Shown here piece after piece: positions 1 to 548 of a stretch of DNA of 7,781 nucleotides. The stretch's first letter is position 1; every line of letters starts with the position of its first letter. The notes under the pieces were generated by a model, which saw nothing but the letters and a program-made list of their open reading frames with translations, did no database searches and had not been told where the DNA came from. The position numbers and the translations under genes are program-made. This stretch comes from a virus (lineage: Monodnaviria > Loebvirae > Hofneiviricota > Faserviricetes > Tubulavirales > Inoviridae): the IMG/VR virus record IMGVR_UViG_2600254997_000002; one strand, written 5' to 3'.

Positions 1-198
1 TTAGCAAACAGTCTCCTGATAACCGACCCATGAACCAGAAGGCAGTGCAACAGATACCAGAACGAAGTCATCCCCGATTGTTTCAACGCATGCAATGAAC
101 AGCTCATTAAATGAGCTGAAGAAATCCCATTCACCATCAATGCAGGCATTAACGCCATAATCAGGAATGTAATCGTAGTAAACAATCTCGTGAGACAT
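1..198 (-). CDS. hypothetical small acidic protein (65 aa), directly upstream of Rep if the genome is circular
   Basis: Complete ORF in the track: ATG at 196-198 (complement), TAA at 1-3. Asp/Glu-rich, no hydrophobic segment. Only a weak GGTG Shine-Dalgarno about 7 nt upstream. No family recognised. Confidence 0.4.
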
Positions 199-335
199 GT
201 TTGCACCGCAATATATTTACCGCATGCGCGCATCATAATCACATTTAATGCGTGTTGTAAATACGCATGCGCTATGCGGGTGTAAAAAAAATGGAATAAT
301 CACCTTCTATTGAAAGGACATAGAGGTAAATTTTG
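199..335. promoter_or_regulatory. divergent promoter/operator region between the 65-aa (minus) and 70-aa (plus) genes
   Basis: Perfect palindrome CGCATGCG at 221-228 and 264-271, plus ATGCGCGCAT at 224-233 and inverted repeat ATGCGT(248-253)/ACGCAT(263-268). Candidate minus-strand promoter: -35 TTTACA (complement of 256-261), 18-nt spacer, -10 TATGAT (complement of 232-237). Candidate plus-strand extended -10 TGgAATAAT at 292-300. Confidence 0.45.
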
Positions 336-548
336 ATGAAAAAAGAAACAAAGCGCGGAGACACAACCGTAAGGATTAACGAAAACAGAAAACTGGAGCT
401 AAAACGAAGAGTGCTGGAAATCGGTAATAAAACAGGTGAGCTACTAAAACCATCAGAGATAGTAAACCACTTAATAGACAACTACTTAGATGATGCGGTG
501 AAAGATCTAATAAGCAAAGAAGAACTTAAGAAAAAAAAGGCAATGTGA
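336..548 (+). CDS. putative small DNA-binding regulator (70 aa), possibly ribbon-helix-helix-like; repressor candidate
   Basis: The track ORF begins at TTG 333; the first ATG is 336 with SD AGAGG at 322-326. Predicted short beta strand (TTVRIN) followed by two helices and a Lys-rich tail. Divergent from the phage operon, which is the usual position of inovirus repressors. Followed by a terminator at 635-662. Confidence 0.5.
   Translation: MKKETKRGDTTVRINENRKLELKRRVLEIGNKTGELLKPSEIVNHLIDNYLDDAVKDLISKEELKKKKAM

What the first reader, a model, noticed from the sequence alone, without database searches (positions are those of the whole stretch)
1..548. Divergent two-gene regulatory module with twin CGCATGCG palindromes flanking a promoter
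Seen in sequence: a 65-aa acidic ORF (minus) and a 70-aa basic Lys-rich ORF (plus) diverge from a 137-bp region. Perfect 8-bp palindromes CGCATGCG sit at 221-228 and 264-271, 43 bp apart (about four helical turns), on either side of a candidate sigma70 promoter for the minus-strand operon. The 70-aa protein has a strand-helix-helix layout compatible with a ribbon-helix-helix repressor. Inference: this is the lysogeny or replication switch, analogous in position to rstR-type repressors of integrating inoviruses. The acidic partner could be an antirepressor or part of an antitoxin-like pair. Neither protein was recognised as a known family.
Basis: partly seen in the sequence, partly recalled or inferred. 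Interest (0 to 1): 0.55.

Follow-up and report, generated by a model that had tools for sequence, protein, structure and literature searches.

The report
RstR-like immunity switch of E. coli inovirus
This is the on/off switch of a CTXphi-like filamentous phage that integrates at the E. coli dif site: a small, probably ribbon-helix-helix repressor, related to an uncharacterised "environmental" RstR of cholera phages, whose palindromic binding boxes bracket the promoter of the replication operon. It is an ordinary kind of module, though this repressor family has never been studied.

Summary
A 65-aa acidic ORF (198..1, minus) and a 70-aa basic ORF (336..548, plus) diverge from a 137-bp spacer. 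CGCATGCG occurs only twice in the window (221-228, 264-271), and the two copies bracket a 10/12 sigma-70 promoter for the minus-strand operon.

The window is a circularly permuted genome of an inovirus that integrates at dif. The 70-aa protein is 68-70% identical to proteins annotated as "environmental RstR" in V. cholerae CTXphi/RS1/pre-CTX and as RstR-like in V. anguillarum VAI phages. Promoter and CATG-core boxes are conserved across at least eight genera, with 43 bp between proximal and distal cores.

More distant family members always sit divergent from a Rep gene, of three unrelated families. Those with other N-terminal strand sequences carry other 8-bp boxes (heteroimmune alleles).

The ribbon-helix-helix fold is moderately supported (hhalign to ParG, 71-77%). 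Nothing reaches Pfam thresholds and the fold searches were uninformative.

The acidic ORF is not a partner of the repressor. It is translationally coupled to Rep, segregates with the replication module in recombinants, is absent from many modules, and is unlike RstC.

Verdict: new member of a known kind; repression itself is inferred, not shown.

The parts
336..548 (+). 70-aa basic RstR-like regulator: the putative immunity repressor, probably ribbon-helix-helix. Proposed beta-strand is T10-I14 (TTVRI), followed by helices 16-33, 39-46 and 51-69.
   Evidence: ORF. phrog_2503, E 1.5e-27. 68-70% identical to annotated RstR of CTXphi/pre-CTX/VAI phages. Family alignments A1 and A4. AlphaFold2 model, pLDDT 72. 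hhalign to ParG, probability 71-77%.
221..236 (.). Promoter-proximal operator. Box CGCATGCG (221-228) plus the in-phase degenerate box CGCATCAT (229-236). It covers the predicted transcription start and the edge of the -10. It also contains the 10-bp palindrome ATGCGCGCAT (224-233).
   Evidence: The CATGC core is the most conserved part of this block in the 12-locus alignment. An 8-bp CATG-CATG spacing recurs across the family.
232..261 (-). Sigma-70 promoter of the leftward operon (65-aa ORF, Rep, ssDNA-binding protein, structural genes): -35 TTTACA at 261-256, 18-nt spacer, -10 TATGAT at 237-232. It is equivalent in position to PrstA.
   Evidence: 10 of 12 matches. The TGTAAA hexamer is found in 14 of 18 loci. 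The ATnATA block is conserved in the alignment.
248..254 (.). Third, degenerate core (ATGCGTG) in the promoter spacer next to the -35. It reads GCATG in most relatives and varies among close E. coli copies.
   Evidence: Alignment. Variants ACACGTG in L006 and AAGTGTG in L024.
264..279 (.). Promoter-distal operator. Box CGCATGCG (264-271) abuts the -35, followed by CTATGCGG (272-279). It also lies over the -35 region of the regulator's own predicted promoter.
   Evidence: TGTAAATACGCATGC is conserved. The distance to the proximal core is exactly 43 bp in most close relatives.
291..299 (+). Predicted extended -10 promoter (TGGAATAAT) of the regulator gene. A Shine-Dalgarno GAGG lies at 323-326.
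   Evidence: Read from the sequence. TGnnAnnnT-type elements occupy the same alignment columns in relatives. Inference only.
1..198 (-). 65-aa acidic protein (phrog_3104), first gene of the regulated operon. Its stop overlaps the Rep start (TAATG). It belongs to the replication module rather than the immunity module.
6612..7781 (-). Rep_trans (RstA-like) replication initiator, the next gene of the regulated operon across the circular junction.
   Evidence: PF02486, E 1.9e-21. phrog_453. Junction.
866..962 (-). Context: attP made of inverted dif-like sites that fold into a hairpin in the packaged strand.
   Evidence: XerC-arm-like sites at 867-877 (+) and 950-960 (-). ssDNA fold -39.4 kcal/mol, z -7.7. 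The prophage array lies beside an exact dif XerC arm and hipA.

Best explanation
Positions 1-548, joined across the circular junction to Rep, form the immunity and replication-control switch of a CTXphi-like E. coli inovirus that integrates at dif.

Proposed mechanism:
- The 70-aa protein is the phage repressor. It most likely forms a ribbon-helix-helix dimer whose N-terminal strand (TTVRI) reads the CATG core of 8-bp palindromic boxes (consensus nGCATGCn).
- Two box pairs lie 43 bp apart, about four helical turns. The proximal pair (221-236) covers the transcription start and the -10 edge. The distal pair (264-279) abuts the -35. A weak third core sits in the promoter spacer.
- Cooperative occupancy shuts off the leftward promoter (-35 at 261-256, -10 at 237-232). 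That promoter drives the 65-aa ORF, Rep, the ssDNA-binding protein and probably the downstream structural genes. Shut-off keeps the prophage silent and blocks superinfection by phages of the same allele.
- The distal pair overlaps the -35 region of the regulator's own extended -10 promoter, so autoregulation is likely.
- Specificity is allelic. Relatives with other strand sequences carry other box sequences.
- The 65-aa acidic protein is the translationally coupled first product of the replication module. It is not a repressor-specific partner, and its role is unresolved.

Shown here: anatomy, homology, synteny, conservation of promoter and boxes, co-variation of strand and box sequences, and integration at dif.

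Inferred: DNA binding, repression, the fold, cooperativity and autoregulation.
For: Palindromes are non-random and bracket a 10/12 promoter.

Homology: 68-70% identity to annotated RstR ('environmental' allele) of CTXphi/RS1/pre-CTX and to RstR-like proteins of VAI1/2. Enterobacterial homologues include one that UniRef names RstR, in Arsenophonus.

Synteny: the regulator is always divergent from a Rep gene across a spacer of roughly 115-370 bp. Rep belongs to three unrelated families:
- Rep_trans (window, L014, L022, L026, L031, Vibrio)
- Phage_CRI/G2P_X_C (L020, L028, L030)
- Phage_GPA (L024, L029, L033)

Footprint: a 12-locus alignment conserves the -35, the -10 and the CATGC cores. The proximal-to-distal CATG distance is exactly 43 bp in most close relatives and 44-46 bp in distant ones, and 8-bp CATG tandems are frequent. 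Strict twin palindromes occur in 7 of 17 spacers against 0.69 expected, maximum 4 in 300 shuffles.

Co-variation of N-terminal strand with box sequence:
- TTVRI / TSVRV / TTMAI go with GCATGC
- TTVAI goes with TTACATGTAA
- KSIGI goes with 8-bp-periodic GTGCAAnn
- KAIAI goes with TGTTAACA
- SYNVP goes with CCTCATG

Fold: hhalign of the 78-sequence family profile against ParG (1p94, sequence verified) gives probability 77%, E 2e-5, across the whole ribbon-helix-helix domain. Against a ParG family profile it gives 71%, E 3.7e-5. The control against the HTH-type classical RstR gives 0.1%. Sub-threshold Pfam ParG hits appear in 8 of 78 members. The AlphaFold2 model shows an extended N-terminus followed by helices.

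Lysogeny context: folded attP and a prophage array at dif/hipA.

Literature: other rstR alleles repress only their own ig-2 promoter in E. coli reporter assays (PMC11509585).
Against: No experiment on this allele was found. The VAI and 'environmental' RstR annotations rest on similarity and synteny (PMC7412436; PMC11395875).

The allele was not among the eight tested in PMC11509585, as far as I could tell.

No Pfam or NCBIfam family reaches threshold.

hhalign against CopG and Arc as single sequences recalled from memory (not verified) was negative.

The AlphaFold2 model is a monomer at pLDDT 72, and its strand is not formed.

The second box of each pair is degenerate in this window, and the distal pair is 7 bp rather than 8 bp in phase.

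Promoter calls in heteroimmune relatives are weak or absent.

No LexA box is present, so the induction route is unknown.
Confidence: 0.78

Rival explanations
1. The 70-aa protein is the repressor of this switch but is not ribbon-helix-helix. It might be a small helical or helix-turn-helix-like DNA binder, with boxes read by a helix.
Against: The most conserved segment is the N-terminal RGDTTVRINE, not a helix. Helix 3 is acidic and poorly conserved. hhalign aligns strand plus two helices to ParG at 71-77% probability, against 0.1% for an HTH RstR. Box sequence co-varies with the N-terminal strand.
Confidence: 0.12
2. The two divergent genes form a dedicated pair in which the acidic 65-aa protein neutralises the basic regulator. 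It would act as an antirepressor made from the derepressed promoter (a positive-feedback latch) or as part of a toxin-antitoxin-like couple.
Confidence: 0.12
3. The palindromes are not operators of the 70-aa protein. They would serve another factor (a host regulator or Rep at an origin), or exist only as part of the promoter's sequence context.
For: Binding has not been shown. Promoter geometry alone could hold the 43-bp spacing. Site 2 varies among close E. coli copies.
Against: Box sequence changes together with the regulator allele while Rep stays the same (L032 against the window). It stays the same while the Rep family changes (L024, L020). A separate conserved stem-loop, the likely Rep_trans origin, lies at 635-664 and also in CTXphi ig-1. 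No LexA box is present.
Confidence: 0.05

Closest known systems
RstR / ig-2 / PrstA immunity switch of CTXphi (El Tor, classical and Calcutta alleles)
   Same: A small repressor gene transcribed divergently from the Rep (rstA) operon across a short spacer that holds the promoter and operators. Immunity is allele-specific. The phage integrates at dif through a folded ssDNA attP. Tandem prophage arrays occur (PMC11509585).
   Different: The canonical RstR tested here (classical allele) is a 111-aa HTH_3 protein and is unrelated to this family (hhalign 0.1%). No LexA box is present here. An extra 65-aa ORF precedes Rep. The phage encodes its own secretin. From memory, not checked here: the El Tor operators are long (about 50 bp) sites rather than 8-bp boxes, and LexA co-represses PrstA.
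'Environmental' RstR of V. cholerae RS1/CTX/pre-CTX (ACV95544, ALF99878) and the RstR-like protein of V. anguillarum VAI1/VAI2
   Same: True homologues, 68-70% identical over residues 6-61. The spacer is homologous, sharing GCATGCGCGCAT and the TGTAAATA -35 followed by CATG-core boxes, with the same 43-bp geometry.
   Different: Different genus and different structural genes. The Vibrio elements lack the acidic ORF. The Vibrio records annotate an 86-aa product with an N-terminal extension running into the spacer, whereas the conserved start gives about 64 aa. No functional data for this allele were found in the papers searched.
ParG (plasmid TP228; PDB 1p94) and the MetJ/Arc/CopG ribbon-helix-helix repressors
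   Same: The profile aligns across the ribbon-helix-helix domain of ParG. The operators are short palindromic boxes, often in 8-bp tandem. From established knowledge, this resembles the MetJ met-boxes, where one dimer binds each 8-bp box and neighbouring dimers bind cooperatively.
   Different: Similarity is sub-threshold. No Pfam ribbon-helix-helix model reaches its cut-off. The loop between helices A and B is 4-6 residues longer, and there is an extra C-terminal Lys-rich helix. Dimerisation and DNA binding are untested.
RstC antirepressor of RS1 (candidate analogue for the 65-aa ORF)
   Same: A small phage-encoded protein associated with the rst region.
   Different: No detectable similarity. 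RstC lies downstream of rstB, whereas this ORF lies upstream of Rep and is coupled to it.

Membership tests
RstR-type immunity module of CTXphi-like inoviruses | Regulator gene transcribed divergently from the replication initiator operon across a short promoter-bearing spacer | tested here: met
   Window and all relatives examined.
RstR-type immunity module of CTXphi-like inoviruses | Sequence homology to a protein called RstR | tested here: met
   68-70% identity to the 'environmental' RstR of CTXphi/RS1/pre-CTX and to RstR-like proteins of VAI phages. Not homologous to the classical HTH RstR.
RstR-type immunity module of CTXphi-like inoviruses | Represses the Rep-operon promoter by binding operators in the spacer, in an allele-specific way | not testable with these tools
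   Indirect only: conserved boxes and co-variation of allele with box sequence. Other alleles were tested in PMC11509585.
RstR-type immunity module of CTXphi-like inoviruses | Host phage integrates at dif using a folded ssDNA attP made of inverted dif-like sites | tested here: met
   Inverted sites at 867-877 and 950-960; hairpin z -7.7. The prophage array abuts an exact dif XerC arm and hipA.
Ribbon-helix-helix (MetJ/Arc/CopG/ParG) superfamily | Significant match to a curated ribbon-helix-helix model or solved structure | tested here: inconclusive
Ribbon-helix-helix (MetJ/Arc/CopG/ParG) superfamily | N-terminal beta-strand followed by two helices, forming an intertwined dimer | tested here: inconclusive
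   The AlphaFold2 monomer has residues 1-15 extended and helices at 16-33, 39-46 and 51-69, pLDDT 72. A dimer could not be modelled.
Ribbon-helix-helix (MetJ/Arc/CopG/ParG) superfamily | Operators built from short inverted or tandem repeats | tested here: met
   8-bp palindromic boxes, frequent 8-bp tandems, and 8-bp-periodic arrays in L029.
Type II toxin-antitoxin pair | Two co-directional, co-transcribed genes, one of them a recognisable toxin | tested here: not met
   The genes are divergent. There is no toxin family hit. The regulator often occurs without the acidic ORF.
RstC-type antirepressor (for the 65-aa ORF) | Sequence similarity to RstC | tested here: not met
   BLASTP found no alignment at E <= 100.
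HicB-like N-terminal fold (for the 65-aa ORF) | Structural match to HicB/TTHA1013-type domains | tested here: inconclusive

The most novel reading that the evidence does not exclude
The family (phrog_2503) would be a previously unrecognised, widespread class of inovirus immunity repressors. These would be ribbon-helix-helix proteins that read MetJ-like arrays of 8-bp palindromic boxes. Their specificity alleles would be exchanged as cassettes (repressor, spacer and the first codons of the next gene) between phages with unrelated Rep proteins.

The family reaches from CTXphi/RS1 elements of V. cholerae to dif-prophages of pathogenic E. coli, and even to an unannotated ORF in the classical phage If1.

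The E. coli and V. cholerae 'environmental' alleles share the operator core GCATGCGCGCAT and an identical DNA-reading strand. They could therefore be cross-immune between genera. The strand/box pairs seen here would give a readable recognition code.
Probability: 0.4. Interest if true: 0.55.

Novelty: new member of a known kind. Interest (0 to 1): 0.4.

Why it matters
The result gives a concrete, testable operator/promoter map for the lysogeny switch of a filamentous prophage. That prophage's regulatory module is present in 32 of 5426 complete E. coli genomes, including ETEC E24377A and O166:H15 strains.

It also links this switch to an rstR allele that circulates in current V. cholerae RS1 and pre-CTX elements but has not been characterised in the papers I searched.

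If the family is ribbon-helix-helix with allele-specific 8-bp boxes, it explains heteroimmunity and the tandem or mixed prophage arrays seen at dif. It would also supply a set of small orthogonal repressor-operator pairs.

It is not a new principle. It is the CTXphi RstR paradigm built with a different DNA-binding fold.

Tried and rejected
- DNA search of the whole window against GenBank phages found nothing. tblastn of the 65-aa ORF against phages found nothing.
- Pfam and NCBIfam scans of both proteins, and of every family member, gave no hit above threshold.
- A sequence-profile search of the PDB gave only sub-threshold hits: TTHA0139 and ParG.
- hhalign against CopG and Arc, using single sequences recalled from memory and not verified, was negative.
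- RstC similarity of the acidic ORF was rejected.
- A toxin-antitoxin reading was rejected on gene orientation and co-occurrence.
- No LexA box (CTGT-N8-ACAG) lies in the spacer.
- The full 28-bp dif was not found within 3 mismatches in L001. Arm-wise searching then located it.
- I tried to identify which named rstR allele (4**, 232 and so on) equals the 'environmental' RstR. The papers read do not say so explicitly. My recollection that it is rstR-4** is unverified.
- The 56-aa ORF at 5506-5676 was tested as a second family member: no relation.
- Promoter scans of heteroimmune spacers gave weak or no calls.

Full report
**What the window is.** All large ORFs lie on the minus strand and form a complete inovirus gene set:
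- Rep_trans initiator, 6612-7781
- 111-aa protein in the ssDNA-binding-protein position, 6239-6574
- major coat protein, 5811-6086
- pIII-like protein with a long Gly/Thr/Ser repeat linker, 3852-5501
- DUF2523/pVI, 3547-3834
- Zot/pI, 2477-3535
- secretin/pIV, 1221-2480

The window is circularly permuted. In E. coli prophage copies its last and first bases overlap by one nucleotide, so the 65-aa ORF stop and the Rep start read TAATG.

**Where the phage is found.**
- No GenBank phage record matches at the DNA level.
- 105 of 5426 complete E. coli genomes carry related DNA, and 15 carry it at full length.
- The regulatory part (1-548) is present in 32 genomes, including ETEC E24377A.
- In O166:H15 strain JNE070796 the phage forms a tandem array next to hipBA. 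An exact dif XerC arm lies at the array end.
- The window carries two inverted dif-like sites (867-877 and 950-960). In the packaged strand they fold into a long bulged hairpin (-39.4 kcal/mol, z -7.7). This is the CTXphi style of attP.

The phage is therefore a dif-integrating, lysogenic inovirus.

**The observation.**
- CGCATGCG occurs only at 221-228 and 264-271. 0.15 copies are expected, and no shuffle out of 200 gave two.
- A 10/12 sigma-70 promoter for the minus strand lies between the copies: -35 TTTACA at 261-256, 18-nt spacer, -10 TATGAT at 237-232.
- The proximal palindrome falls on the predicted start site. The distal one abuts the -35.
- The palindromes are the best-formed members of a denser array. 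CGCAT/ATGCG occurs seven times in 57 bp. ATGCGCGCAT (224-233) is an overlapping 10-bp palindrome. A degenerate core sits in the promoter spacer. A 14-nt inverted repeat (214-227 / 250-263) spans the promoter.

**The 70-aa protein.**
- Pfam and NCBIfam are silent. It matches phrog_2503, function unknown, at E 1.5e-27.
- tblastn finds it at 68-70% identity in V. cholerae CTXphi/RS1/pre-CTX records, annotated 'environmental RstR', and in V. anguillarum VAI1/VAI2, annotated 'RstR-like'.
- Those annotations rest on similarity and synteny, not experiment (PMC7412436; PMC11395875).
- Closer homologues occur in Salmonella, E. albertii, Gilliamella, Providencia, Xenorhabdus, Photorhabdus and Arsenophonus. 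A profile search of 1.8 billion representative proteins finds 80 clusters.
- The canonical classical RstR is a 111-aa HTH_3 protein and is unrelated to this family (hhalign 0.1%). 'RstR' is thus a positional and functional name that covers at least two folds.

**Fold.**
- The most conserved stretch is N-terminal, R-G-D-T-T-V-R-I-N-E. It is followed by a helix, a G-N-K-T-G loop and a hydrophobic helix, SEIVNHLIDNYL.
- AlphaFold2 (pLDDT 72) gives an extended N-terminus and helices at 16-33, 39-46 and 51-69.
- hhalign of the 78-sequence family profile against ParG aligns residues 6-53 to the whole ParG ribbon-helix-helix domain: probability 77%, E 2e-5. The ParG sequence was checked against 1p94. 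Against a 31-sequence ParG profile the result is 71%, E 3.7e-5.
- ParG is also the most frequent sub-threshold Pfam hit, in 8 of 78 members.
- I rate ribbon-helix-helix at about 70%.

**Synteny and phylogenetic footprint.**
- In every relative examined the gene is transcribed divergently from a replication initiator. The initiator belongs to three unrelated families: Rep_trans, Phage_CRI/G2P_X_C and Phage_GPA.
- A 12-locus alignment of spacers, spanning E. coli to Vibrio, conserves the -35, the -10 and the CATGC cores.
- The distance from proximal to distal CATG is exactly 43 bp in most close relatives and 44-46 bp in distant ones. CATG pairs 8 bp apart are common.
- Strict twin palindromes occur in 7 of 17 spacers, against 0.69 expected and a maximum of 4 in 300 shuffles.

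**Alleles.** Members with a different N-terminal strand have different boxes:

| Strand | Locus | Box |
|---|---|---|
| TSVRV | L028 | tandem CGCATGCG/CGCATGCA pairs, 45 bp apart |
| TTMAI | L030 | TGCATGCA, two copies 46 bp apart |
| TTVAI | L031 | TTACATGTAA, two copies 44 bp apart |
| KSIGI | L029 | 8-bp-periodic GTGCAAnn arrays |
| KAIAI | L033 | TGTTAACA |
| SYNVP | L032 | CCTCATG repeats |

- L032 is a natural swap. It has the same acidic ORF (from residue 5) and the same Rep as the window, but a different regulator and an unrelated spacer.
- L024 is the converse. It has a 99%-identical regulator and a near-identical spacer, followed by a 49%-identical acidic ORF and a Phage_GPA Rep.
- The exchangeable immunity cassette is therefore the regulator, the spacer and the first few codons of the next gene. 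This is how heteroimmune rstR/ig-2 alleles behave in CTXphi, where each tested allele represses only its own ig-2 promoter (PMC11509585).
- The 8-bp palindromic boxes in tandem recall MetJ met-boxes. This comparison comes from established knowledge and is offered as an analogy only.

**The 65-aa ORF.**
- It is a real, conserved protein (phrog_3104), with homologues at 45-83% identity.
- It has no similarity to RstC.
- It is always start/stop-coupled to Rep. It is absent from many modules. In recombinants it travels with the replication genes.
- This argues against a repressor-specific antirepressor or antitoxin role. A generic role in replication, or in tuning Rep translation, remains open.

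**Mechanism proposed.** Repressor dimers occupy the proximal boxes (over the start site and -10 edge) and the distal boxes (next to the -35), about four helical turns apart. This shuts off the Rep operon. The distal boxes overlap the -35 region of the regulator's own extended -10 promoter (TGGAATAAT, 291-299), which suggests autoregulation. There is no LexA box, so the induction signal is unknown. All binding and regulatory steps are inferred.

**Verdict.** The rstR-type reading is supported and sharpened, since the protein is a true homologue. The ribbon-helix-helix fold is plausible. The 'acidic partner' idea is not supported. The module is a new member of a known kind of switch, built on an uncharacterised and probably ribbon-helix-helix repressor family. 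Interest is moderate.

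Noticed in passing
window 866-962 (packaged strand = minus): Two inverted dif-like sites (XerC-arm-like 867-877 on +, 950-960 on -) fold into a long hairpin with a 6-nt bulge in the central region (-39.4 kcal/mol, z -7.7). This is a CTXphi-type attP(+). In E. coli the prophage array ends at an exact dif XerC arm beside hipA.
   Followed up: partly
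window 635-664; also L001, L003, L014, L019, L021, L022, L023, L032: The stem-loop ACCCCCG-N9-CGGGGGT lies roughly 90-110 nt downstream of the regulator gene where checked. It is present in every locus examined that carries or is expected to carry a Rep_trans gene, including CTXphi. It is probably the Rep_trans nick site or plus-strand origin.
   Followed up: partly
window 6584-6700 (3' end of Rep, 6612-7781, minus): The window's Rep is frameshifted near its 3' end compared with the E. coli RefSeq copy (389 against 398 aa). The RefSeq C-terminus (...[22 protein letters not shown]) survives in the overlapping ORF 6584-6796. This is either a sequencing error or a real mutation.
   Followed up: partly
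L027 1183-1374 (Escherichia phage If1, NC_001954, 'major intergenic region'): An unannotated, intact 63-aa member of the same regulator family (MATPKRTTMAIVAERKLKLERLAIDAS...) lies in If1, on the strand opposite to gene IV. Upstream is a 147-aa ORF that looks transposase-like to my eye (unchecked). If1 is regarded as a non-lysogenic phage.
   Followed up: partly
L032 (E. coli AST217) and L033 (E. coli E100341): Heteroimmune variants occur at the same dif/hipA site. L032 keeps the acidic ORF and Rep but has a different regulator allele and an unrelated spacer with CCTCATG repeats. L033 has two family regulators in tandem and TGTTAACA boxes in front of a Phage_GPA-type Rep.
   Followed up: partly
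window 5506-5676 (minus): A 56-aa ORF lies between the coat and pIII-like genes and is annotated in RefSeq copies as hypothetical. By eye it has a strand-helix-helix-like pattern. It has no family and no relation to the regulator family (hhalign 0.1%).
   Followed up: partly
window 4175-4585 (within the pIII-like gene 3852-5501): A long (GTGS)n/(GT)n repeat linker. The gene length differs from the E. coli prophage copies (1650 against 1608 nt), so the repeat is length-polymorphic.
   Followed up: no
L004 2429-2689 / L019 8215-8475 (V. cholerae 'environmental' rstR): GenBank annotates an 86-aa RstR whose first 22 codons run through the operator region. The start conserved across the family gives about 64 aa, so the Vibrio annotation is probably too long.
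   Followed up: partly
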